Source: the human T2T-CHM13v2.0 reference genome, Homo sapiens. From it: a stretch of DNA of 64,000 nt. The translations under genes were made by a program, and so were the position numbers. Positions 12,326 to 27,327 of the stretch are shown here, in pieces. Under the pieces are notes generated by a model. That model searched no databases. It was not told where the DNA came from and worked only from the letters and a program-made list of their open reading frames with translations. Numbering within the stretch: position 1 is the first letter of the stretch; every line of letters starts with the position of its first letter. Location of the stretch: the NCBI RefSeq assembly GCF_009914755.1, contig NC_060927.1. The stretch is one strand, 5' to 3'.

Positions 12326-12516
12326 GCTAGGCCCATTTTCTGGGTATGAAAGAATATACGTTGTAATTTTGTGTGGGGAGGGGGTTGTCAGCTGCTTCTA
12401 AAGAGAATGATTTCTGTGAAGCAGAGTGGGGCTTGGCTTTCTGAGTAGATAATGGATCTCATATGCAAGTTTGGGGTTAGAACCGAGGAAGAGAAGAAAT
12501 GCTTTGCCTTTTTGTT

Positions 12517-14391
12517 TTTTCTTTTTTTTCTTTATTATTATTATTATTATTTTTTGAGACGGAGTCTGGCTCTGTTGCCCAGGTTGGAGTGCAGTTACGG
12601 TATGATCTCAGCTTACTGCAACCTCCGCCTCCTGGGTTCAAGGGATTCTCCTGCCTCAGCCTCCAGAGTAGCTGGTGAGAGGTGACAGCATGCTGGCAGT
12701 CCTCAGAGCCCTCGCTTGCCCTTGGCACCTCCTCTGCCTGGACTCCCACTTTGGCGGCACTTGAGGAGCCCTTCAGCCCACCACTGCACTGTGGGAGCCC
12801 CTTTCTGGGCTGGCCAAGGCTGAAGCCCACTCCCTCAGCTTGCAGGGAGGTGTGGAGGGAGAGGCGCGAGTGGGAACCGGGGCTGCGTGCGACGCTTGCG
12901 GGCCAGCTGGAGTTCCGGGTGGGCATGGGCTTGGCGGGCCCCGCACTCGGAGCAGCCGGCCAGCCCTGCTGGCCCTGGGCAATGAGGGACTTAGCACCCG
13001 GGCCAGTGGCTGCGGAGGGGGTACTGGGTCCCCCAGCAGTGCCAGCCCACAGGCGCTGTGCTCAATTTCTCGCCGCGCCTTAGCTGCCTTCCTGCGGGGC
13101 GGGGCTCGGGACCTGCAGCCCGCCATGCCTGAGCCTCCCACCCACTCCATGGGCTCCTGTGCAGCCCGAGCCTCCCCAAAGAGCACCACCCCCTGCTCCA
13201 CGGTGCCTAGTCCCATCGACCACCCAAGGGCTGAGGAATGCGAGCGCACGGCACGGGATTGGCAGGCAGCTCCACCTGCAGCCCCGGTGCAGGATCCACT
13301 AGGTGAAGCCAGCTGGGCTCCTGAGTCTGGTGGGGCCTTGGAGAACCTTTATGTCTAGCTCAGGGATTGTAAATACACCAATCAGCACCCTGTGTTTAGC
13401 TCAAGGTTTGTGAGTGCACCAATCGACACTCTGTATCTAGCTGCTCTGGTGAGGACGTGGAGAACCTTTATGTCTAGCTCAAGGATTGTAAATACACCAA
13501 TCGGCACTCTGTATCTAGCTCAAGGTTTGTAAACACACCAATCAGCACCCTGTGTTTAGCTCAAGGTTTGTGAATGCACCAATTGACACTGTATCTAGCT
13601 GCTCTGGTGGGGCCTTGGAGAACCTGTGTGTCGAAACTCTGTATCTAACTAATCTGATGGGGACGTGGAGAACCTTTGTATCTAGCTCAGGGATTGTAAA
13701 TGCACCAATCAGCGCCCTAACAAAACAGGCCACTCGGCTCTACCAATCAGCAGGACGTGGGTGGGGCCAGATAAGAGAATAAAAGCAGGCTGCCGGAGCC
13801 AGCATTGGTAACCTGCTCAGGTCCCTTTCCACGCTGTGGAAGCTTTGTTCTTTTGCTCTTTGCAATAAATCTTGCTACTGCTCACTCTTTGGGTCCACGC
13901 TGCTTTCATGAGCTGTAACACTCACCGTGAAGATCTGCAGCTTCACTCCTGAGCCCAGCAAGACCACGAGGCCACCGGGAGGAACGAACAACTCCAGACG
14001 TGCTGCCTTAAGAGCTGTAACACTCACCGCAAAGGTCTGCAGCTTCACTCCTGAGCCAGCGAGACCACGAACCCACCAGAAGGAAGAAACTCCGAACACA
14101 TCTGAACATCAGAAGGGACAGACTCCAGATGTGCCACCTTAAGAGCTGTAACACTCACCGTGAGGGTCCGCGGCTTCGTTCTTGAAGTCAGTGAGACCAA
14201 GAACCCACCAATTCTGGACACACTGAGATTACAGGCATGCACCACCACGCCCGGCTAATTTTGTATTTTTAGTAGAGACAAGGTTTCTCCATGCTGGTTC
14301 TGACTGGTGTCAAACTCCCGACCTCAGATGATCCGCTGGCCTTGGCCTCCCAAAGTGCTGGGATTACAGGTGTGAGCCGCCGTGCCAGGCC
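12517..14391 (-). mobile_element. AluS (Sp-like) split by an LTR12 insertion (Alu parts 12517-12675 and 14223-14391)
   Basis: The halves rejoin to GAGTAGCTGG|GATTACAGG. TSD ATGCTTTGC(C)TTTTTGTT at 12499-12516 and 14392-14408. GGTTTCTCC is Sp-like. Confidence 0.88.
12676..14222 (+). mobile_element. LTR12C (HERV9) solo LTR
   Basis: Termini TGAGAGGTGACAGC...CCAATTCTGGACACA. Tandem CCAAT-containing U3 repeats; CCAAT/CACCC/GATA/AATAAAA core promoter at 13743-13784; AATAAA at 13864. 4-bp TSD CTGG/CTGA. Confidence 0.95.
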
Positions 14392-14401
14392 ATGCTTTGC
14401 T

Positions 14402-15385
14402 TTTTGTTCTCAACAGTTTTACTCAGAATTCACATAACACCCAATTCCATCCACTTAGGTGTGTAACTCAATGGCTTTTTCTATCTTCACAGAGTTGTGC
14501 AACCATCACAGCTATTCAATTCCAGGACATTTTCATTACCCCAAAGAAAAACCATGTATGTCCCCTTTCCTCCATATCCCCCAGCCCCTGACAACCAGTG
14601 TTCTGCATTCTGTGTCTGCAGATTTGCCCATTCTGGATGTTTCATATAAGTGGAATCATAAATTAGTAGTTCTTTCCGACTGGCTTCTCTCACTGAGCAT
14701 GTTTCCAAGGTTCACCCGGGTTGCGGTATGTGTAAGTATTTCCCTTTGTATGGCTGAATAATACTCCACTGTAGGGTGCACCACATACTGTTTATCCACT
14801 TGGCAATTGATAGGCATTTGGGCTATTTCCACTTTTTTGCTAAACTGAATAATGCTGCTGTGAATATTCAGGTACAATTTTGGGGTGAACATTCATTTCT
14901 CTGTTGTAAAGAGCTAGGAGTGGAATTTCTGGGTCACATGGTCACTCCATATTTAATCATCTAAGGAGCTGCCAGTCTATTTTCCAAAGCATCTGCGCCA
15001 TTTTACATTCCACCATGTATGGAATCAATGAGGGTCCCAGTTTCTCTGCTTCCTTGTCAGCATTTGTTCTTATGGGTTTTTTATTCTAGCCATCCTAGCA
15101 GGTGTGAGGGGACCCTGCTGCAGCTTTGATTTGCATTTCCCCGAGGGCTAGGAATTTTGAGCATCATTTCATGTTCTTTGTGGCCACTTGTATATCTTCT
15201 TTGGAGAAATGTCTACTCAAGTCCCTTTCCCACTTTTAAATTTGATTATTTGTCTCTTTATTATTGAATTATAATAGTCCTATATGTATTCTAAATACCA
15301 ATCCATTATCAGATGTATGATTTGCAAAATTTTTCACACATTATGTGAATTTTTTCACTTTTTTAATGGTGCCCTTTCAATGCAC
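14402..15385 (-). mobile_element. L1MB-type LINE-1 3' fragment
   Basis: TTCACAGAGTTGTGCAACCATCAC, GGCTGAATAATACTCCA and TCTTCTTTGGAGAAATGTCTA are reverse-strand L1M 3' region signatures. Confidence 0.85.
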
Positions 15386-15479
15386 TGCTTCTAATAAGAG
15401 AATGATAAATCTGAAGTTAGTTTCAGTGGTGGGGTGTGGGATCCAAGAGAGGGAGAGTGGAGCCGCAGGCAGGGCAGTA

Positions 15480-15927
15480 CCCAGGGAAGACAGGAAGAGC
15501 TGAAGGGAAGACAGAGGAGGAGCAGGCAGACAGGGTGGGGCCCAGGGAAGACAGAGGAAGAGCTGCAGGGAAGACAGAGGAGGAGCAAGCAGACAGGGTG
15601 GGTCCCAGGGAAGACAGAGGAAGAGCTGCAGGGAAGACAGAGGAGGAGCAAGCAGACAGGGTGGGGCCCAGGGAAGACAGAGGAAGAGCTGTAGGGAAGA
15701 CAGAGGAGGAACAGGCAGACAGGGTGGGGCCCAGGGAAGACAGAGGAAGAGCTGCAGGGAAGACAGAGGAGGAGCTGGCAGACAAGGTGGGGCCCAAGGA
15801 AGACAAAGGAGGAGCTGGCAGGGAGGGCGGGGTCCAGGAAGACAGAGGAGGAGCTACAGGGAGGGCGATTCCCAGGGAAGACAGAGGAGGAGCTGCAGGG
15901 AGGGCAGGGTCCAGGGAAAACAGAGGA
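15480..15927 (+). repeat. Minisatellite/VNTR with a 63-bp unit that decays into ~39-bp units
   Basis: Unit CCCAGGGAAGACAGAGGAAGAGCTGCAGGGAAGACAGAGGAGGAGCAAGCAGACAGGGTGGGG starts at 15541, 15604, 15667, 15730 and 15793 (exact 63-bp period), with a 61-bp copy at 15480. Confidence 0.95.
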
Positions 15928-16699
15928 ACGCCAATGCTGGACACCAGAACGTGGAACACAAGTTCCTTTGACGTGTCTCTTGGTGATAAACCCTGTCTTT
16001 TTTTCTGAAGTTACCTTTAATTCGTTTCACCCTCTTTCTTGAAAGATAGTTTTGCTGGGTATGCAATGCTAAGTGGAGCCATTTTTGTAGCACTTTGAAG
16101 ACACCAATCCACTGTTCTGTGGCCTCAGTAGCTGCCCTGAGGAGGTGGGCTGCCAGTCAAACTTTTTCCTCAAAGGTGATTTTCTTTTTTACTGGCTATG
16201 TTTAGGATCTTCTTTTCATCTTTGGTGTTCTGCAATTTGGATACAATGTCTTGTCGACTCCTGCCTCACAGCTGGGGAAGAATGTTCTGGATATCAACAC
16301 TTCCAGTGGGGGTCTTCTGGAGAGCCCACCAGAGGTCATTTCTCAGCCTTCCCAGTGATGGAGTGAGCATGCCGTTCCCACTGCTCCATACCTTTCTCCT
16401 GAATCACTGCAGTGGTGTCTGTTTTGTGCAACAAACCCTTACTGGACGGGGGCCCTCACCCCCTGCCATGATCCTGTGAGCAGCATTTTGTTTTTCCTCT
16501 AAGTCCCAGAGGCCCTGACCCTGATGAATGTCTGGAGGGGTGGGGCTCACACTTCCCCTCAGGGTTTCTCCACCCCTAGGGTTTCCCATTCTTGCTCCCA
16601 CCCACTGAGGGAGCACTATGCGGGAGTCAGGGAGCTCCTCTTTCGCCCCTTTTGGAGCCTGGTCATGCTGCTTGATCACGGTCATTTCCTTAGAGATCT

Positions 16700-19600
16700 G
16701 AACCAGGGCGGGCATGATGCGGATGGGGAAGCATTACTGTCACAACCCCATCCCCAGTCTGACAGCTCCTCCTAACCAGCAGGGCTCCTCACTGGCCTTT
16801 TTCACAAGCATGGGTCTTTTCCAGCAGTCTTTAGCTCTGGTTACCGGCAGAAGCCCATCTCTGTCTGCAGTCTTGGACACTGCACCTGGGACAGGTGTCT
16901 GTTACCCAGAGCTGCTGTAGCCACCAACAGGTGAGAGATTGGCATGTTCCGTAGCTTAACCATCCAGTAGTTGAGATTGTCCCCTCTGCCTCCACCCATG
17001 GAGGTCGATGATGGCTGGGGGTGCCTGCTTGGACACCAATAAAAAGGGCAGGCAGCACGGCCCCTGCCTCCTGGCAGCGTAATCCTGGATTAGGAAGCTG
17101 CTGCATGGCTGCAGAGCCACTTCATTCCTGGGGCGAGTTCCCAGCACGCCCGATAAAGCCCCATTAAATCTCCCAGGTGGGGGCCCTTGAGGGTTGATAG
17201 GCAGTCATTCTTGGCTTTTGAATTCCTGCCAGTTGAAATACTTCCCATAGCAACTGACTCTCAAAATGCCTTCCATGGTGAGGATGGGTTGGAGTTTGGA
17301 GAAGAAATTTCCCCACTGCTCTGTGCCCTGGAGGCTTGCAGATCCGCAGCAAGGGGCACCATGAGAGTGGATGGCCAGTGATCCTGGGGCTGGGTTTCTG
17401 GGTTCTGACCACTGAGCTCTAGAAACTAAATAGCCACCAGGCCTAGGAATTCTAAGCTTTGCTGGTCTGAATTCTCCATCCACCACACCTACTCCAATGC
17501 CTTTTTCTCAGCGACTCCCTCCCTGTTTGAATGGCCGTTTCCAACAGTGGCCCCTGTCCCTCAGTCCTGCCATCTTTTCCCCAAAACACGCATTGCCATA
17601 GTTTTATCTATCTGATTTATTGGCCTGTGAGAACAAGGGTTTTGTCTGTCTCAGCTCCTGCTGTGTCTTTAGCCCTTGGGACAGTGCTCAGCACACAGTA
17701 GGTCCTCAGTAAATACCCAGTGAATGGAAAAATGAACGACAACTGAATGCTGGTCTTTGCACACACATGGCTGCGCTTCTGTGCACACACCCTGCCTATC
17801 TCCAGCCAGACAAGTGTGCAAAGTTGTCCCCCACTCCCCTGGTGCCACGGACACCTCTCCAAGGTGGCACGAGCTGTCTCCACAGCCATTCCCAGGGCTT
17901 TGCAAGACCCGAAAATTGGGTACAATGGACAATTTTTCACCTCCCAGGGTAGAACTTCTGTGCTTTAAAGAATCAGAGGCCTCCCCACCCCTCTGTGGGG
18001 CCATGACTGTGGTCACCAACCCTGCTGTGCCCACAGAGCTTTGAGTGCAGGCTTCACAGGACCTCCCCACGCAGAAGCCACCGTGGGCTTCAGGTTAGGA
18101 GGTGACAAGGCTGTCAGGGCCGTGATTGCAAAGCTGTCTCCATCACATCCCCTGCTGCTCCTTGCAGGAAGACACAGAGTCCATTTCCCATCCCATGAAA
18201 TCGGGCTGCTTCCATGACCCACTTTGGCCCATAAAGTGTGGCAGAAGTTCTGGTAGTCAGCCCCAAGGCGGTGCCACTCTGTCTGGAATCAGGAGAACAG
18301 GCCGGGAGCCGCTGGGGCTGAGTCTGGAATGTCCTCAGTGTTCCACTTCCCTGTCCGCTCAGAGTGCATCCAAAGGCCAAGGACCTGGAGACCTTCCCAC
18401 ACTTGCGGCTGCCGCTAGGACCGGCCTTGGAGTGCACAGTACTGCCTTGGCTTGGCTGCCCAGGATCTGAACTCCCTCTCGACCCCGGGCGGCTCTGCCT
18501 GCCGAGGCTCAATCTTCCCTTGCAAGGTTGGGCAGGTCCAGGCTCCCTTCCCAGCCTCCTTTGCAGCAGCACACCACAGCGTGGAGGATCTGGTCAGGGT
18601 CAGCCCCACCAGTGGCAGCCTGCTCGAGGTGAGCGGTGGCTATGCAAAGGCGCACCCACAGCTCCATGGCAGCACCAGGGGACTCCGCACCAGCCTGGGC
18701 TGGGGTGTGGTTTTTGGCTGTGGTCCTGGCTGTGGCTTTTCCTGCTTTGTCCCCATTTCCTCCAGGCCTCCTGAAGAGCCTCTGAGCTAGCCCTATCAGT
18801 GCATAGAGTCTCCAAGGTTTGCAACTAAGACCCCTGATGGTGTCAAGGTCCCTGCGTGGGCCAGGCCCTGGAGTCAGATTGACCAGGTGCTTGGCCAGAC
18901 AGCACTTCTCTCTGGGTCACCCAGGACACCCATTCTCTGCAGTTGGATAAGACAGGGTCAGGAAATAGGAGAGGACCTGTGTACACTCCCAGATGGCAAA
19001 TAATGTGCCCACATGTGTCCCCGTGGGGCAGCATAATGGCCCCTGTCTGCAGACTCTCCCCTCCCACTCAAGAGTCTTGAACCCAGGACTTGGTTTCTCT
19101 GAACCTAAGCACATTATCCCCAAACTCTGCCACTTCAGTCCTGCTGGCACCCCAGGCACTCTCCCCACACCTGCCTGGGGCTCCCCAGAGCTCCTGAAAC
19201 ATCCCAGCAAACAAAAATGTCCTCCTGGGCAAAGATGCTGGCTTTTCCTCCTCCACTTGCCCACCCCCAATACATAGTCCTTGCATCTCCTGCAGGCAGC
19301 CCAGTGGGTGCCAAGCCCCTGGTGGACCACAGCACATGGGATTTGTGCCGTCACTAGTGCATGTCCTGATTCCTCAGATTTCTCAGGCTCTGTTGTGCTG
19401 GGGTGCACGCTGGGAGGCTTATGTGTATTACACTGCTCCTCGTGTCTCCCTTTTGTACACTTACGTACCAGTGATGGGTCGGTCCTTCCAAGACACCGTC
19501 TAAGAGCCCAGGGGCCCTGCCACTCACCAGGGCCCACTCCATTGTCATAAGCCTGAGTCCCAGGTGGGTCTTCATTTGGGACTTCTCCCACTCCTTCAGT

Positions 19601-19975
19601 GTTGGGCCTTCATGAGTGCTAAGTTATCTACACACAGTTCCCTGGCACCATCCTTGGTGTGCATGCCCAGGAGGCCCAGCAGAGATGTTCTCATGGCCCG
19701 TGTAGTGACTTTGCCGTGCAACTTTGGCCAAAAACTGTTCCCTAGCCACAGAGCAACTGTGTCAGCCAGAGTTCCCAGCTGCAGGCAAACAGAAACGAGC
19801 TCTGATTTGAAGGGAATGAAATCTATTGAAAGGTTATAGGGGACCTCACAGAGCCTCCAGGAGTCCATGCAGCCAAAGTTGTGCTGCAAGGCTGGGCTGA
19901 GGCACATGTGGCTGCTGCCTTGTGCATTTGCCAGTGTCGCATGCTTTTGGCCTTCCTGCAGTCCCCGCTGCAACT
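16700..19975 (-). pseudogene. Fossil Ty3/Gypsy LTR-retrotransposon pol (RT - RNase H - integrase), frameshifted; MamGyp-like
   Basis: Ordered motifs on the minus strand: HTKDGARELCVDNL (19661-19620), GLLD and HWYVSVQKGD (19509-19444), IFAQEDIFV (19236-19210), AGLKW (19144-19130), KPWRLY/TD-AS (~18822-18785), DAL (18370-18362), HRGVGRPLIL/QKFYPG/GMAVE..ERC (17997-17851), GRHFESQLLWEVFQLAGIQKPRMTAYQP (17274-17191), GRFNGALSGVLGT (17174-17136), IIDL (17012-17001). Confidence 0.82.
17595..17748 (+). mobile_element. L2 3' end inserted in the Gypsy fossil
   Basis: GTGAGAACAAGGGTTTTGTCTG...ACAGTGCTCAGCACACAGTAGGTCCTCAGTAAATA...TGAATG matches the L2 terminus. Confidence 0.8.
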
Positions 19976-20169
19976 ACAGCAGCCTCTGATGCCCTCACAG
20001 TGGCCCTTGCTTGTGTCACCAGCTTCCTGGTCAAATTTGGGGCTGAGGGTCTGATGGTGGAGCCTAGGTCCTGCTCTCCAGCCCCGGGCACCACTGGGAG
20101 CTTGTTAATGCCCAAATCTGAGGCCTCAATGAGGCTTAGGGAGAACCTGCATTTTAACTAGATTCCCAT

Positions 20170-20600
20170 TGTACTAATTATCTTTTCCTGCATAACAATT
20201 ATTGCAAAACTCAGTGGCTTAAGACAACAAACGCTGATGATCTCACACTGCTCCTGAGGGCCAGCAAGTGGCTGGGCTGATGGCTCTGCTTCACTGTCTC
20301 ATTAGGCTGCAGCCACCTGCAGGTTTGACTGGGGCTGGTGGGTCTGCTCCCAACGTGACTTGCTCACTGCTGGTGTTGGCAGAAGGCTGTGGCTCCTCAT
20401 TGTGGGGACTCTCCATGGGACTGCTTGAGTGTCCTTGCAATATGGCGGCTGGCTTCCCTGGAGCGAGTGACCCAAGAGAAAGCCATGTTGTGGCCTAACC
20501 TTGCAAATCACATGTGTCACTACACAGGTTGGCCCCACTCAGCCTGGGAGGGACTGTGAGGTGGAGAAGGTGAGGACCTGGGCTTTTGTGGGGCTCTGCT
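20170..20600 (-). mobile_element. MLT1 (F-like) MaLR LTR
   Basis: TGCATAACAA...CAAAACTCAGTGGCTTAAGACAACAAAC and CTGCTTGAGTGTCC...ATGGCGGCTGGCTTCCC. Confidence 0.75.
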
Positions 20601-20644
20601 CATAGAAAGAGTATTCACCTTGCAGGACAGCCAAAAACAATGAC

Positions 20645-20930
20645 TAGGATTATTCTCTTGTCCTTTTTCTAACCTACTGAGTTGGATGTTTAATTCAATT
20701 ATTTGCATTGCTTCTTGTTTATTAATATAAACGTTTAAGGCTATGAATTTTCCTCTGAGGAACAATAGCTCCAATAGTGTTTTTATTATTTCTGAATATG
20801 TCAATTTGGAATTTTATTTCTTCTTTGATCCAAGTTTTGCTTAAGAGAGCTTTAAAATTTCCAAGCAAAGGGCCTTTATATTAGTTATATCTGGTTTTAT
20901 TGCATTGTGAATAGAGACTTTTTTCTGTAT
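20645..20930 (-). mobile_element. Ancient L1 ORF2 fragment
   Basis: Translates LRGKFIALNVYINKQE...IELNIQLSRLEK, resembling L1 ORF2 just after the endonuclease domain. Confidence 0.8.
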
Positions 20931-21418
20931 TTTTTTAAACAAAATAAAATGTATATGGCTTAAAAATTCAAATCGTAGCATTATCAAGCTTAAAACAAAA
21001 ATCTTCTGACCCCTCTCCTTCCCTTGAACACTCCAACTCCACTTAGTCCTTGAGGCAACTGTCTTCGGCCCTCTTCAATGGCTTTTCTGTTATGTCCCAC
21101 CCCAGGCCTGAGAACAGGACTGCACCATCAATTCCAGACATTCCAATATTAGGCACTATCTGCTATCATTGTCCTAAGACCAGGACGCAGCTTTTTATCT
21201 TCCCCTGTTTTTACACACGTCCCCCCTCCCTGTCCTATTCTCGTAGTCATATCACGATTTTTGGTGAAATGCATTTCTAGCACTGGTATTCCTCTGGTTG
21301 TGTAAATATTGTTCATAGATGAGTCCCATAGTGCACCATGATTACATTGATTTTCTTATGCAATTTTCCCTCTGGATTTGCCCCATTTTAGGGGTTTGCT
21401 TGGTTTTTATTATTGTTG

Positions 21419-23192
21419 TGGGTCTGGAATTCATGGGTTCTTGGTCTCACTGACTTCAAGAATGAAGCCGCGGACGCTTGCAGTGAGTGTCACACTTCTT
21501 AAATGCGGCGTGTCCGGAGTTTGTTCCTTCTGATGTTCAGATGTGTTTGGAGTTTCTTCCTTCTGTTCTGGTGGGTTCGTGGTCTTGCTGACTTCAGGAC
21601 TGAAGCTGCAGACCTTTGAGGTGAGTGTTATAGCTCATAAAGGCAGTGTGGACCCAAAAAGTGAGCAGCAGCAAGATTTATTGCAAAGAGCAAAAGAACA
21701 AAGCTTCCACTGTGGGGAGGGGGACCCGAGGCGGTTGCCACTGCTGGCTCGGGCAGCCTAATTTTATTCTCTTATCTGGCCCCACCCACATCCTGCTGAT
21801 TGGTCCATTTTACAGAGAGCCAATTGGTCTGTTTTACAGAGAGCTGATTGGTCCGTTTTGACAGGGTGCTGATTGGTGCGTTTACAATCCCTGAGCTAGA
21901 CACAAAAGTTCTCCATGGTCCCCACTAGATTAGCTAGATACAGAGTGTTGATTGGTGTATTTACAAACCCTGAGCTAGACTCAGAGTGCTGATTGGTGCA
22001 TTTACAAACCTTGAGCTAGATACAGAGTGTCGATTGGTGCATTCACAATCCCTTAGCTAGACATAAAGATTCTCCAAGTCCCCACCAGATTAGCTAGACA
22101 CAGAGCGCTGACTGGTGCATCCACAAACCCTGAGCTAGATACAGAGTGCCGACTGGTGTATTCACAATCCCTTAGCTAGACATAAAGATTCTCCAAGTCC
22201 CCACCAGATTAGCTAGATACAGAGTGCCAACTGGTGCATCCACAAACCCTGAGCTAGACACAGGGTGCTGACTGGTGTTTACAAACCTTGAGCTAGATAC
22301 AGAGTGCTGATTGGTGTATTTATAATCCCTTAGCTAGACATAAAGGTTCTCCAAGTCCCCACTAGACTCAGGAGCCCAGCTGGCTTCACCCAGTGGATCC
22401 CGCACAGGGGCTGCAGGTGGAGCTGCCTGCCAGTCCCGTGCTGTGCCCCTGCACTCCTCAGCCCTTGGGCGGTCGCCGTGGAGCAGGGGACGGCACTTAT
22501 CAGGGAGGCTCTGGAGGCGCAGGAGCCCGTGGCGGGGGCAGGGGAGGGGTGGGGGGCCAAGGGAGGGGGGCAGGGGGTGGGGGGGATGGGGGACGGGGTG
22601 GCAAGGGGAGGGGGCAGGGGGGGGAGGGGAGGGGGGCAGGGGCAGCAAGGGGGGGCGAGGGGAGGGGGGGCAGGTATGCGGGGGGGTGGTGAGGGGAGGG
22701 GGGCGGGGGGTGGGGGGGGCAGGGGGAGGCAGGAGGCCCAGGCATGTTGGGCTGCAGGTCTGGAGCCCTGCCCCACAGGGAGGCAGCTAAGGCCCAGCAA
22801 GAAATCGAGTGCAGCGCTTGTGGGCCGGCACTGCTGGGGGACCTGGCGCACCCTCCGCAGCTGTTGGCCCAGGTGCCAAGCCCCTCACTGCCCGGGGCTG
22901 GCGAGTTGGCCGGCTGCTCCAAGTGCGGGGCCTGCCAAGCCCACACCCATCCGGAACTCTAGCTGGCCCACAAGCGCTGCCCACAGCCTGGTTCCTGCCC
23001 GCGCCTCTCCCTCCACACCTCCCGGCAAGTTGAGGGAGCCGGCTCCAACCTCAACCAGCCCAGAGAGGGGCCCCCACAGTGCAGTGGCAGGCTGAAGGGC
23101 TCCCCAAGCTTGGCCAGAGCAGATGCCGAGGCCAAAGAGGCACCAAGAGCCAGCGAGGGCTGCAAGGGCTGCCAGCATGCTGTCACCTCTCA
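21419..23192 (-). mobile_element. LTR12-family (HERV9) solo LTR with an internal G-run expansion
   Basis: Termini TGGGTCTGGAATT...TGTCACCTCTCA. Perfect 4-bp TSD GTTG (21415-21418 and 23193-23196). ATTGG repeat array; TTTTATT at 21762. Confidence 0.95.
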
Positions 23193-23559
23193 GTTGGTTT
23201 CTCAAACATATTTAGTAATCCACCAACTTTAATTTTTTCTTGACAACATCACTCCTGGAGCCCCGGATGCTTACACTGGCTGTTGCTGTGTTCTTGGTCT
23301 CTCTGTCTTCACTGCCCTGGGAACCCCCTGGCCTTAGCTCTGGGCTCCAGCCTCAAGGTTGTTACCGAGCGAAGGGGCTCACTGCCTTGTGTGCTAGAGG
23401 CCAACATCGTGATACTTATGAGAAAATAAAAGCTTGACTCCCAAGAATTTCTGTTAGTCACTGGTTTTTAAAAAGCTCTTTGGGGCATAGTTTCAGGGTC
23501 TGATATCCTGGTGCCCCTTTCTGCCCTGGCTTGGGCATGCACATAGACCTAGCACATTT

Positions 23560-24150
23560 TCCAGTAGGCTCATAGTAAGTGTGCACAGGAGAGGCAACAT
23601 TTTTGAAGCCTTAAGTATCTGAAAATATTTTATTTTACATTTACATGTAAACATTTTTATTTTCCATGTATACTGAGGATACTTTGGCTGGGTATTGAAA
23701 TCTAGGTTAGAGCTATGGTGTCATCATCTTCTAGCTTCCACAGTGCTGTGGAGAAGTCAGATGCTGTTGGAACCTTATCCTCTGTGACCCGATCCTCTGT
23801 TATCTCCTTGACTTTGACATTTATGGAAATGTGCCTTGGTGAGAGTCTGTCTTTATTCATTGGACTGGACCCTTCGTGAGGCCCCTCAGTGCAGGAACCA
23901 ATGTCCCTCAGTTCTGTAATGCTCGTATTTATTGGATGATTTTTCTCTCCTTAGTTTTCTCTGTTCTGAGTGCCTGTTATTTAGACGGTGGACATCCTGG
24001 ACTAACCATCTGATTTTGTTTTGTTTCTTCCTTTTGCCATTTTGTCTAACTCTCTGGAGTGTTTCCTCACTCTTATCTCCCCCTCTTCCAACTGAATTTT
24101 CAAATTTATGCTCCACATATTTCATTTCTCAGAGCTCCTTTCCGTTCTCA
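23560..24150 (-). mobile_element. Ancient L1M internal fragment
   Basis: TCTGAAAATATTTTATTTT, TTTGGCTGGGTAT and CTTCTAGCTTCC...GAGAAGTCAGATGC. A similar fragment lies at ~16000-16250. Confidence 0.55.
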
Positions 24151-24344
24151 TCATTTTCTTTGCTAGAACCTCTTGTGCATGTTCTCTGGATCTTCCCTTC
24201 TCTCTCTGAAGACACTCCCTTCAGTTTCCTTCTGACACCCTTTGTTCTACTCCCTGTTTTTCAGACTGCAGGCTTTCTTCAGGTGATCCCTTGACTTTCT
24301 GTTCATATTTAAGAGGGAGGCACTAAAAGCTGATTAAACACATA

Positions 24345-24760
24345 ATATGTATTTGTAAGAGCCCAAATTGGAAACGACCCCAATGTTCATTAACAGTAGA
24401 GTGGACAATACTGTACCCACACAATGGAATGCTCTCCAGCACCAAGAATGGACCATATTTGTGCAAGTCACGGGGCGAATCTCAAATATGATGCTGAAGA
24501 GAAGAAGCCAGTCTTGAAACAGCACACCTTTGCCTAAAGCATGGAACCAGGCAAGACAAATCTGTGTGCTAGGAGTCACGATAGTGTTGTCTTTGCCTGG
24601 GGGTGGCGACTCAAAGGGGCTGAGGAGGTTTCTGGGATGCAGGTTTATTCTCTCTCTTGATCTGGCTGACTAAGGGCGTGTCCTGTTAGTGAAAAATCAT
24701 CATGCTAGACTCTCAGGATGAGTGCACTTCAGTGTCCAGCAATTATACGTTCAGCTGAAA
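24345..24760 (+). mobile_element. L1ME-type 3' end
   Basis: TTGGAAACGACCCCAATGTTCATTAACAGTAGAGTGGA and GAATCTCAAATATGATGCTGAAG. Confidence 0.65.
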
Positions 24761-26083
24761 CCATACAAGGGAAATCCGTGGGACTTGTGGGCTGGTGGGT
24801 GACCCCGTGGGGCCAAGCTGTTCCTCCAGAGAGCAATCTTCCATTCTCCTGCCTGGGTTAGCCATTTGTGAGTGGACTGGGAGTGGGGCAGGCGTCTCTT
24901 GACTCCCTGTGCAGGCTTCTCACACACTCCACTTTTTCAGTAAAGAGCCTCACTTCTGCCCTGAGAAAGGCTGAGCTCCCCACCTCCAGAGAGTCTGGGT
25001 TCACCCTCCACAGAGAATAAACCTCCCATCTTCAACTGGGATGGTGGGGGATAGGGATCCAAATGCCCAGACCCTACCTCCAGGGTATCTGGTGCCTCCA
25101 ATTCTGCAGGCTTGCTGGGCCTCGTGATTGGCCTGATTCTGCCTGGCTTCCTTAATTCTTGCTTCAGAACAGTTTTTGTTTCACTGTATTTTCTGGGCCT
25201 TCTATTAGTAAGTGAGGGACCATCTGGACTAATTTGTTAACATTTCTTTTTTCTCTCATATTTTCTCTCTCTTTCCTTTTGTTCTGCTTTCTTGCAGATT
25301 TCTGCAACTTTATGTTTTAATCCTTGGGTAGATTTTTAAAAATCAGCTATCATATTTTAATGTTGTTATTACATTTTTTATTTTGGGATAATTATATTCA
25401 CATGCACTTATAATAAATAATACAGATATTTCTGTGTACTCTGTACTCAATTTCCCCCAGTGGTAATGGTTTGTAAAGCTATGGTAGAATATCACAACCA
25501 GGATATTGACATTAATGCAGTCAAGATAAAGAACATTTCCATTGCTTCAGGTATCTCTTGTAGCCACCCTTGTTTATATCCAAAACAACTTTTCCTTCCC
25601 CCGTCCCTCTAACCTTGATCCTTGGCAACCACTAATCTGTTCTTCAGTTCTATAATTTTGTCATCTCAATGGTATTATATGAATAGAACCACAGAGTATG
25701 TAATCCTTTGGGCTTGGCTTTTTCACTCAGCAGAATTCTCTGGAGATCCATCCAAGTTGTTGCGTGTATCAATAGTTCATTCCTTTTATTGCAAAATAAT
25801 ATTGCATAGTACAACGTACTACAGTTTGTTTAGCCATTCATCTGGTGAAGGATATCTAGATTGTTTCCAGATCTGGGCTATCACGAGTAATGCTGCTATG
25901 AGTATTTATGTACAGATTGTTGCAGGAACATACTTTTTCATTTCTCTGGAATACAGTGCAGTTGTTGGGTTGTATGGTAGTTGCATACTTAGTTTTATAA
26001 GAAACTGCTGAACTCTTTTCCAGACTGGCTGTGCCATTTTACATTCCTACCAGGAATGTACGAGCAATACAGTTTCTGCACAT

Positions 26084-26258
26084 TTAGAGTCAGTATAAAT
26101 ATTGACGCATAGTCCTTTTGCAAGGGTGAGGTCTTGAGTTAAGGCAATGACTTCTGTTGGCTGAGAGGTAGTGGACGGGGGGCAGAGTGGTAGCCTCAAT
26201 GATAGATGTGGAAGATACGATAGCATAGCCTGCCTTTGCTAATGACTGGCGATTAGGA
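26084..26258 (-). mobile_element. Isolated HERV-H pol (RNase H) fragment, 175 bp
   Basis: Translates PNRQSLAKAGYAIVSSTSIIEATTLPP/STTSQPTEVIALTQDLTLAKGLCVNIYTDSK with one frameshift. Flanked by TGCACAT at 26077-26083 and 26259-26265. Confidence 0.85.
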
Positions 26259-27327
26259 TGCACATCCTCACCAGCATTTGGTGTTACCACTAGTTTCCAT
26301 TTTAGCCATTCTGTTAGGTCTGTAGCGTATATCTTTGTGGTTTAACATGCGTTTCCTTTATGGATAAGATGTTGAACATCTTTTTATATGCTTATTTGCC
26401 ATCTACATGTCTTCTTTAATAATATGTCCATTTGTGTCTTTTGTCCACTTTCTAACTAGATTGGCTTGTTTTTCTTTTTCAACTTTTAGCTACCCTATTA
26501 ACTGAAGGGATTTTTTTTTTATTGCTAAGTTTTGAGTGTTCTTTTTATATTCTAGATACTAGTCCTTTATTGGATATGTGGTTTGCAAATATGTCTCCTA
26601 GTCTGTAGCTTGTCTTTTCACCCTGTTAAAAGAGCCTTTTGCAAGCAAAAGTTTGTAATTTTAACAAAGTCCAGTTTGTTAATTTTTTTTTACGGCCCAT
26701 GCTTTCTGTGTCAGGTTGAAGAACTCTTTGCCTAGCTCTAGAGTTTCTGTTATGCTCTTTTTTTCCTAAAAGTTTTATAGTTTACATTTAAGTCTATGAT
26801 CCATTTTGAATTGAATTTTATGTAATGTATGAGGTGTAGGCTGATGTTCATTTTTTTGCAGCTATCATTTAAAAACTAAATAATAGACCACTTTTAAGTT
26901 TTGGATTTACAGAGAAATTGAGCAGATTGTATAGAGTTCCCGTGTAATCCCACCCCTGAACACAATTCCTCTGTTATTAACATCTTGCATTAGTGGCACA
27001 CTTGTTATAGTTAATAACCCAATATCGATACGTTATTATTAACTAAAGTCTATAGTTCACCCTTGGTTGTACTTCTCTGTGGGTTTTGACAAAGGCAGAA
27101 TGTGGTGCATCCCCTGTTACAGTGTCAAACAGGAACTTCACAGCCCTAAAATTGCCCTGTGCTTTAGCAACCATTGATCTTTTCACTGTCTCTATAGTTT
27201 TGCCTTTCCTAGAATGTCATACAGTTGGGATCATATAGTACACAGCCTTTTCATACTGGCTTTTTTTCGCTTAATAACATGTATTTAAACTTTCTCCATG
27301 TATTTTTGTGACATGGTAAATCATTTC

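What the first reader, a model, noticed from the sequence alone, without database searches (positions are those of the whole stretch)
16700..19975. Near-complete fossil Ty3/Gypsy pol gene (RT-RNase H-integrase) downstream of PLXNA1
Seen: joining frames on the minus strand gives more than ten motifs in Gypsy order and at plausible spacing. RT: QHNFGCMD..IDFIPFKSE (~DFGCT..DDTPFR), HTKDGARELCVDNL (~KKDGSLRLCVDYR), ALVSG..LLD..HWYVSVQKGD (~LSG..LDL..YWQV.V..ED), AQEDIFV (~YLDDIIV), AGLKW (~AGLKL), QVLGS (~YLGH). RNase H: KPWRLY/TD-AS (~PF.LYTDAS), SWAAK (~RWAA), DAL (~ADALSR). Integrase zinc finger: HRGVGRPLIL/QKFYPG/GMAVE..ERC (~GHLGV.RT..RFYWPGM..C..C). Integrase core: WGNFF, GRHFESQLLWEVFQLAGIQKPRMTAYQP/QG..GRFNGALSGVLGT..FLIQDY..PFLL..IIDL (~[20 protein letters not shown]...ERFN.TL..MLGT..P.IDL). 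The comparison motifs are recalled generalised Gypsy consensus. Established: Gypsy elements are extinct in mammals and survive mostly as short MamGyp fragments or as domesticated genes (PEG10/RTL, PNMA, GIN1, NYNRIN). Inference: a ~3.3 kb collinear pol is unusually complete. The catalytic residues look lost (YxDD to AQED, SDQG to PHHG, ERFN to GRFN). It is either a neutral fossil or a once-domesticated gene that was lost on the human lineage. It may already be annotated as MamGyp-int or MamGypsy2-I.
Basis: partly seen in the sequence, partly recalled or inferred. Interest (0 to 1): 0.85.

Follow-up and report, generated by a model that had tools for sequence, protein, structure and literature searches.

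The report
Decayed Gypsy retrotransposon pol relic
A short stretch downstream of PLXNA1 is a genuine, long-dead remnant of a Gypsy-type retrotransposon integrase, perhaps with a trace of its reverse transcriptase upstream, but it is an ordinary genomic fossil and not a near-complete gene.

Summary
Only one part is clearly more than chance. About 30 codons at 17186-17274, extendable to about 17409, match the C-terminal half of the integrase core of Ty3/Gypsy pol proteins. The best tblastn hit is E 8e-7 against the whole 64-kb window. My frameshift-aware profile alignment gives 43.1 bits against 21.5+-1.7 for shuffles. An unnamed 138-aa protein from another genome is 67% identical to this stretch, so the relic looks older than one lineage.

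A collinear chain of reverse-transcriptase motifs at 18978-19814 is suggestive. None of 200 shuffles reaches it, but 18 of 538 natural human tiles do. RNase H, the zinc finger, and the N- and C-terminal parts of integrase cannot be told from chance.

I found no LTR pair, no open frame and no paralogue in the genome. Pfam and PDB searches of single frames found nothing.

Verdict: a heavily eroded, probably neutral Gypsy pol relic. This kind is already described in human DNA (MamGyp-int and relatives, PMC5753468). "Near-complete" is not supported. Interest is low.

The parts
17186..17274 (-). Integrase core relic, C-terminal half of rve (profile nodes 949-978), with one +1 frame change at 17195
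   Evidence: Frameshift-aware profile alignment scores 43.1 bits. hmmsearch on the single frame covers 17286-17191 with i-E 9.9e-6.
17275..17409 (-). Weaker upstream continuation of the integrase core, in the same frame
   Evidence: tblastn aligns P0039 764-844 to 17409-17191 and P0018 914-985 to 17382-17191 at 33% over 72 aa. On its own this part is not above chance (10.4 bits).
17130..17185 (-). Possible continuation of the core (GRFNGALSGVLGT) past the frame change
   Evidence: Anchored extension test: 0.05-0.14 of 300 shuffles and 0.17-0.34 of 300 natural decoys do as well. Not significant.
18978..19814 (-). Candidate reverse-transcriptase remnant. The six best-looking of the chain's collinear segments here lie at 19814-19788, 19655-19626, 19287-19242, 19224-19191, 19133-19089 and 19010-18978 (profile nodes 332-507); a seventh, weak-looking one lies at 19602-19561 (nodes 373-386).
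   Evidence: Chain score is 41.0. 0 of 200 shuffles reach it and 18 of 538 natural tiles do. The opposite strand scores 21.4, and only 1 of 269 tiles is as strand-asymmetric (a post hoc statistic). The strand-specific peak is at tile 18800-19799. Segments are listed.
17898..17997 (-). Candidate H2C2 zinc-finger remnant (HRGVGR.., QKFY..)
   Evidence: Best local alignment is 16.0 bits and needs 5 frame changes in 33 codons. The 90th percentile of control intervals is 16.2. Not shown to be real.
17430..17760 (.). Stretch between the zinc-finger candidate and the integrase core that, from memory, looks like an old interspersed repeat. Boundaries are by eye.
   Evidence: Unverified. blastn found no second copy in 152 kb of local human DNA. 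The N-terminal part of P0155 seems to derive from the same stretch (my reading).

Best explanation
This is the eroded internal (pol) part of one ancient Ty3/Gypsy-type LTR retrotransposon that inserted on the minus strand and has since decayed neutrally. What can still be recognised is the C-terminal half of the integrase catalytic core. It is shown at 17186-17274 and is likely to run to about 17409. About 1.7-2.5 kb upstream, in the expected order, there is probably a chain of reverse-transcriptase motifs at 18978-19814. I put the chance that this RT trace is real at about 0.55. RNase H, the zinc finger, the integrase ends and the LTRs are eroded beyond detection, deleted or overwritten. The element encodes nothing now: every frame is broken, and the second catalytic Asp of the integrase is replaced. 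The integrase homology, the loss of coding capacity and the existence of a similar sequence in another genome are shown. The single-insertion history, the RT remnant and neutrality are inferred.
For: - Integrase core: tblastn with 137 Gypsy pols against the whole 64-kb window puts 123 of 258 HSPs (E<1) at 17191-17409 on the minus strand. The best is P0082 at E 8e-7. Identity reaches 62.5% over 32 aa with P0127.
- The frameshift-aware profile scores 43.1 bits, against 21.5+-1.7 for shuffles. 0 of 352 control intervals reach it.
- The matching proteins have the RT-RNaseH-H2C2-rve architecture.
- Integrases in the 32 human ERV/NYNRIN loci I fetched reach at most 25.4 bits at this site.
- The three nearest named ESM Atlas clusters all carry rve, at scores 0.87-0.89. 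By that tool's own standard this is a lead only.
- RT: the chain scores 41.0, with 0 of 200 shuffles and 18 of 538 natural tiles reaching it. The signal is strand-specific and localised.
- Decay: 35-40 stops per frame in 1333 codons. SDQG in P0018 aligns to PHHG in the window.
- Age: P0155, an unnamed protein from another genome, is 38/57 identical to the human frame and itself matches P0018 at 15/33. It keeps some residues shared with P0018 that the human copy has lost, and the reverse is also true.
Against: - Only about 30 codons carry the significant signal. On their own, nodes 860-948 and 979-1110 score 10.4 and 12.0 bits, which is noise.
- The full collinear chain for nodes 300-870 is not above natural tiles: 82.5 against 70.8+-10.4, maximum 91.9, n=36.
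- The RNase H chain is at or below the null. The fraction of controls reaching it is 0.35-0.81.
- RT is the best-conserved Gypsy domain and should be at least as visible as integrase under equal decay, yet it gives no tblastn HSP at E<1.
- No LTR pair was found in 14400-23500.
- No second copy was found in the genome by DNA or by protein.
- Pfam and PDB searches of single frames found nothing.
- At E about 1e-6 per window, roughly 0.1 chance hits of this strength are expected across a whole human genome. This is my own estimate, not a tool result.
Confidence: 0.72

Rival explanations
1. This is an isolated integrase fragment only. A short piece of a Gypsy-type element, or of a DNA transposon with a Gypsy-like integrase such as Ginger, survives at 17186-17409, and all upstream 'RT, RNase H, zinc finger' motifs are chance matches picked by eye from three frames.
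For: The whole-pol chain is not above natural tiles. No tblastn HSP with E<1 lies on the minus strand in 17500-19975. 18 of 538 natural tiles match the RT chain score.
Against: The RT chain beats all 200 shuffles. It is strongly strand-specific, with only 1 of 269 tiles as asymmetric. It peaks where pol order predicts. The closest integrases all sit in RT-bearing polyproteins. Ginger and GIN integrases were not available for comparison.
Confidence: 0.2
2. This is a relic of a once-domesticated pol- or integrase-derived host gene, or an exapted conserved element, rather than neutral junk.
For: A 15-residue block (SQLLWEVFQLAGIQK) is identical between the human frame and P0155, while overall identity is 67%. 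By my estimate a run that long has a chance of about 0.03. The hub's annotation lists a RefSeq enhancer at 19600-20100, which overlaps the RT candidate.
Against: No open frame survives, with 35-40 stops per frame. A catalytic residue is lost. No annotated gene lies here (hub table). GIN2, the known integrase gene lost in placentals, lies between OGFOD2 and ABCB9 and so not at this locus (passages of PMC3424704). No human gene or paralogue resembles the ORF, the best non-self hit being 23 bits.
Confidence: 0.05
3. The integrase block is a fragment of an endogenous retrovirus pol, or a pure chance match, and not Gypsy.
For: Retroviral and Gypsy integrases are homologous. Human ERV frames do hit the same spot weakly, for example L030 to 17316-17182 at 23.9 bits. 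The significant stretch is short.
Against: Gypsy pols score 40-44 bits against at most 25.4 for the ERV loci I sampled. The shuffle and interval controls exclude chance at the scale of this window. P0155 independently matches P0018.
Confidence: 0.03

Closest known systems
MamGyp-int and other Gypsy traces of the human genome (MamGypLTR1-3, LTR85, LTR88, LTR104_Mam, X1_LR to X4_LR; Repbase, reviewed in PMC5753468)
   Same: An ancient, non-functional Ty3/Gypsy remnant in a mammalian genome. The review's passages state that only a small fraction of mammalian DNA consists of such traces.
   Different: I could not compare the window with those consensus sequences, because no Dfam or Repbase library is on hand. 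Whether this copy is already annotated as one of them is therefore unknown. I found no other copy in the human genome.
P0018-like Ty3/Gypsy pol polyproteins (unnamed metagenome and eukaryote records; named relatives include fish and frog 'uncharacterized proteins' and arachnid 'K02A2.6-like')
   Same: The integrase core motif matches. P0018 ..[22 protein letters not shown].. aligns to the window's ..PHHGRHFES..GIQKPRMTAYQP.
   Different: Those are intact 1200-aa RT-RNaseH-H2C2-rve proteins. Here only about 30-70 codons align significantly.
Domesticated integrase genes: NYNRIN, GIN1, GIN2
   Same: They are integrase-derived sequences fixed in vertebrate genomes.
   Different: 14 NYNRIN proteins give no hit at the integrase block. 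GIN2 lies at another locus. GIN1 was not tested directly, but no human locus resembles the ORF. Here there is no open frame.

Membership tests
Ty3/Gypsy (Metaviridae-type) LTR retrotransposon pol | Integrase catalytic core (rve) homologous to Gypsy integrases | tested here: met
   tblastn E 8e-7. Profile score 43.1 bits against a shuffle maximum of 26.9. Only the C-terminal half of the core is covered.
Ty3/Gypsy (Metaviridae-type) LTR retrotransposon pol | Intact DDE catalytic residues | tested here: not met
   The second Asp is replaced: P0018 SDQG aligns to PHHG. The first Asp and the Glu lie in stretches that do not align significantly.
Ty3/Gypsy (Metaviridae-type) LTR retrotransposon pol | Reverse transcriptase upstream of integrase, in the order RT-RNaseH-IN | tested here: inconclusive
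   RT chain 41.0, with 0 of 200 shuffles and 18 of 538 natural tiles reaching it. A strand-specific peak lies at 18800-19799. No single HSP has E<1.
Ty3/Gypsy (Metaviridae-type) LTR retrotransposon pol | RNase H domain between RT and integrase | tested here: not met
Chain score 20.6-27.8, with 0.35-0.81 of controls reaching it.
Ty3/Gypsy (Metaviridae-type) LTR retrotransposon pol | H2C2 zinc finger N-terminal to the core | tested here: inconclusive
   16.0 bits at 17997-17898 with 5 frame changes. The null 90th percentile is 16.2.
Ty3/Gypsy (Metaviridae-type) LTR retrotransposon pol | Flanking long terminal repeats | tested here: not met
   The repeat finder on 14400-23500 found only tandem arrays and no distant direct pair. 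LTRs diverged below about 65% identity would be missed.
MamGyp-int (Repbase/Dfam) | Nucleotide or protein similarity to the family consensus, and multiple copies in the genome | not testable with these tools
   No Dfam or Repbase library is available. Own-genome searches found no further copy.
GIN2 pseudogene | Position between OGFOD2 and ABCB9 | tested here: not met
   The window lies downstream of PLXNA1 on chr3 (hub annotation). The GIN2 synteny is from passages of PMC3424704.
Endogenous retrovirus pol | Closer to retroviral than to Gypsy integrases | tested here: not met
   Six-frame translations of the 32 fetched ERV and NYNRIN loci score at most 25.4 bits, against 40-44 bits for Gypsy pols. 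Only those copies were sampled.

The most novel reading that the evidence does not exclude
The integrase block, and perhaps the RT trace that overlaps a RefSeq enhancer, is not neutral. It would be the last conserved piece of a Gypsy pol that was co-opted in early mammals, as a gene later lost or as a regulatory element. That would explain why about 45 bases are unchanged at the protein level between human and the genome behind P0155 while the rest of the element has vanished.
Probability: 0.06. Interest if true: 0.5.

Novelty: new member of a known kind. Interest (0 to 1): 0.18.

Why it matters
It matters little beyond annotation. Gypsy traces in mammals are rare but already catalogued, so one more eroded copy adds a data point for dating the extinction of Gypsy elements in the mammalian lineage. 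It would matter more only if a mammalian alignment showed constraint, which would point to exaptation or a lost domesticated gene. The case also shows that motif matching by eye across three frames overcalled a fossil. One block of the claimed pol was real and one region was suggestive. The remaining claimed motifs were not above chance.

Tried and rejected
- Pfam hmmscan of 18 stop-to-stop ORFs and of the three whole frames with X at stops found no pol family at E<=10.
- PDB phmmer with one frame, P0002, found 0 hits.
- Own-genome scans with PF00665, PF17921 and a 233-aa part of P0018 were swamped by ERV copies, so the window was never scored.
- A word-indexed protein search with the integrase block found no candidate.
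- A first whole-window run of my frameshift-aware Viterbi gave scores up to 89 at 23-27 kb on the minus strand. With a tile-specific background this fell to 24.1, against 21.5+-2.0 for shuffles. I rejected it as a composition artefact.
- A 'pre-RT' hit at 20648-20942 fell to 23.0 bits with a local background. The stretch is AT-rich and not part of the element.
- A second peak of the integrase sub-profile at 17022 was only the tail of the main alignment.
- The idea that 17430-17760 is a MIR-type insertion could not be verified.
- The weak pol-like HSPs at 13552-13779 on the plus strand lie in tandem or Alu-like repeats and have no Pfam match.
- A GIN2 pseudogene was rejected on synteny.
Full report
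**What was checked.** The window is human chr3 downstream of PLXNA1 (hub annotation; one search confirms G000:C3:129766001-129830000). I listed all stop-to-stop ORFs over 16000-20500. I also translated the three minus-strand frames of 16200-20200 with X at stops. Each frame has 35-40 stops in 1333 codons, so nothing is open.

**Standard single-frame searches fail.**
- Pfam hmmscan of 18 ORF fragments and of the three whole frames gave no RVT, RNase H or rve match at E<=10.
- phmmer of one frame, P0002, against PDB sequences gave nothing.
- Scans of the whole genome with PF00665, PF17921 or a Gypsy integrase segment returned only the 150 best ERV copies, so they never scored the window.

**Getting references.**
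- The best PF17921 hit of the genome is the large NYNRIN exon.
- Using it as a query returned 14 NYNRIN proteins and 19 Ty3/Gypsy pol polyproteins.
- tblastn of these against the window singled out P0018, whose residues 942-985 align to 17322-17191.
- P0018 carries RVT_1, RT_RNaseH, Integrase_H2C2 and rve.
- A search with P0018 gave 120 listed relatives of the same architecture. A few are named: fish and frog 'uncharacterized proteins', and arachnid 'K02A2.6-like'.

**The integrase core is real.**
- With 137 Gypsy pols against the whole 64-kb window, 123 of 258 HSPs with E<1 fall at 17191-17409 on the minus strand. The best is P0082 at E 8e-7 and 43.9 bits. Identity is 59-62% over 32 aa with P0047 and P0127.
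- P0018 ..[33 protein letters not shown] aligns to the window's ..THPHHGRHFESQLLWEVFQLAGIQKPRMTAYQP.
- I built a profile HMM from the 137 proteins and wrote a local Viterbi that allows frame changes.
- With a background taken from the tile itself, the best alignment in 16200-20200 on the minus strand is 43.1 bits. It covers profile nodes 949-978 and window 17274-17186, with one +1 frame change at 17195.
- 30 dinucleotide shuffles give 21.5+-1.7 with a maximum of 26.9. The reversed sequence gives 20.4 and the plus strand 21.4.
- 0 of 352 same-size intervals in the window reach the observed score.
- Six-frame translations of 32 fetched ERV and NYNRIN loci reach at most 25.4 bits here. The block is therefore closer to Gypsy than to the sampled retroviral integrases.
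- The three nearest named ESM Atlas clusters all carry rve at 0.87-0.89, which that tool rates as a lead only.

**How far the integrase extends.** It does not extend far.
- Nodes 979-1110 alone score 12.0 bits downstream and nodes 860-948 alone score 10.4 bits upstream. Both are noise.
- An extension anchored at node 978 into GRFNGALSGVLGT.. does better than most shuffles (0.05-0.14 reach it). It does not beat natural decoys (0.17-0.34 reach it).

**The rest of pol.**
- No tblastn HSP with E<1 lies on the minus strand in 17500-19975.
RT scores 18.7 bits, at the KDGARELCVD string, and 0.31 of control intervals reach it. The fractions for the other parts are RNase H 0.38, linker 0.81, H2C2 0.23, integrase N-terminal half 0.44 and C-terminus 0.44.
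- A collinear chain with a jump penalty of 9 bits, for nodes 300-870 over 17400-20200, scores 82.5. Shuffles give 67.2+-5.8 with a maximum of 86.7 (n=40). Other tiles of the window give 70.8+-10.4 with a maximum of 91.9 (n=36). This is a hint only.

**Domain by domain.**
- The RT chain (nodes 330-512, window 18900-19900) scores 41.0 against shuffles at 24.6+-3.5. 0 of 200 shuffles reach it, and 5 of 114 natural tiles do.
- RNase H: 0.35-0.81 of controls reach the observed score.
- H2C2 plus the integrase N-terminal half: 0.08-0.25 of controls reach it.

**More on the RT signal.**
- With 60 kb more flanking human DNA (L044-L049) and nine other fetched human loci (L035-L043) as controls, 18 of 538 tile-strands reach the RT score. 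Several of those 18 score high on both strands at one place, which is the signature of low complexity.
- The real tile scores 41.0 on the minus strand and 21.4 on the plus strand. Only 1 of 269 tiles is that asymmetric. I chose this statistic after seeing the data.
- Sliding the tile shows a strand-specific peak at 18800-19799.
- The six best-looking chain segments are: 19814-19788 (PFKSELVSV), 19655-19626 (KDGARELCVD), 19287-19242 (DARTMYW..), 19224-19191 (EDIFV.., the YxDD site), 19133-19089, and 19010-18978 (GHIICHLGVYT). A seventh, weak-looking segment lies at 19602-19561.
- I rate a real RT remnant at about 0.55.

**The zinc finger.** The candidate at 17997-17898 reaches 16.0 bits only with five frame changes. 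That equals the 90th percentile of the null.

**Context.**
- No LTR-like distant direct repeat exists in 14400-23500.
- The 4-kb DNA and the 84-aa ORF have no other match in the genome. The best non-self hit is 23 bits, and those nine loci show no Gypsy similarity.
- An exhaustive phmmer search of 1.84 billion representative proteins with the 84-aa ORF found two hits at E<=1e-3. One of them, P0155, is an unnamed 138-aa protein.
- P0155 is 38/57 (67%) identical to the human frame. It aligns to P0018 at 15/33.
- I read P0155 as a spurious ORF from the orthologous locus of another species. If so, the relic predates that split. The two copies retain different residues shared with P0018, as expected for independent neutral decay.
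- The source of P0155 is unnamed, and I did not look for it.

**Comparison with what is known.**
- Passages of PMC5753468 state that the human genome holds a few Gypsy traces: MamGyp-int, MamGypLTR families, LTR85, LTR88, LTR104 and X1-4_LR. [quoted passage not shown]
- Passages of PMC3424704 place GIN2, which was lost in placentals, between OGFOD2 and ABCB9. That excludes a GIN2 pseudogene here.
- I could not test whether this copy is already annotated as MamGyp-int, because no Dfam or Repbase library is on hand.
- I did not search for this locus by name. Supplements of these papers were not consulted.

**Verdict.**
- There is a genuine Gypsy-type integrase relic, probably with an RT trace upstream in the right order and on the same strand. 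It is dead and apparently single-copy.
- It is not a near-complete 3.3-kb pol.
- It belongs to a kind already known in mammalian genomes, so interest is low.

Noticed in passing
window 15429-15946: A tandem array with a 63-nt unit, about 6-8 copies at 93-98% identity in the centre. It gives long stop-free frames on both strands (195-211 aa ORFs) and spurious low-complexity protein hits.
   Followed up: no
window 21860-22370 and 22533-22736: Tandem 41/78-nt repeats (GATTGGTG..TTTACAA..GAGCTAGA units), followed by a G-rich 8-14-nt microrepeat. Both lie in stretches that the hub lists as masked. From memory the first resembles LTR12-type repeats. This is unverified.
   Followed up: no
window 13552-13779 (+): About 60 weak tblastn HSPs (best E 0.012) to the RT-thumb/RNase H border of Gypsy pols, inside the masked repeat block 12484-14388. 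The translation shows tandem units and Alu-like ends, and Pfam finds nothing. Probably spurious.
   Followed up: partly
window 20648-20942 (-): An AT-rich stretch rich in K, I, L and E gave composition-driven scores with the pre-RT part of the profile: 31.4 bits, falling to 23.0 with a local background. From memory its translation resembles L1 ORF2. Pfam finds nothing.
   Followed up: partly
window 23000-27000 (-): This region has 42% GC against 55% in the finding. With a window-wide background it produced false profile scores up to 89 bits, and these vanished with a local background. A cluster of weak HSPs (E 0.13-5) to the rve core lies at 26117-25947 and is not significant.
   Followed up: partly
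L009 (G000:C14:18613593-18616763): The best Integrase_H2C2 match of the human genome is the large NYNRIN exon, with RT_RNaseH_2 and H2C2 domains and 94% identity to named NYNRIN proteins. It served only as a route to Gypsy references.
   Followed up: yes
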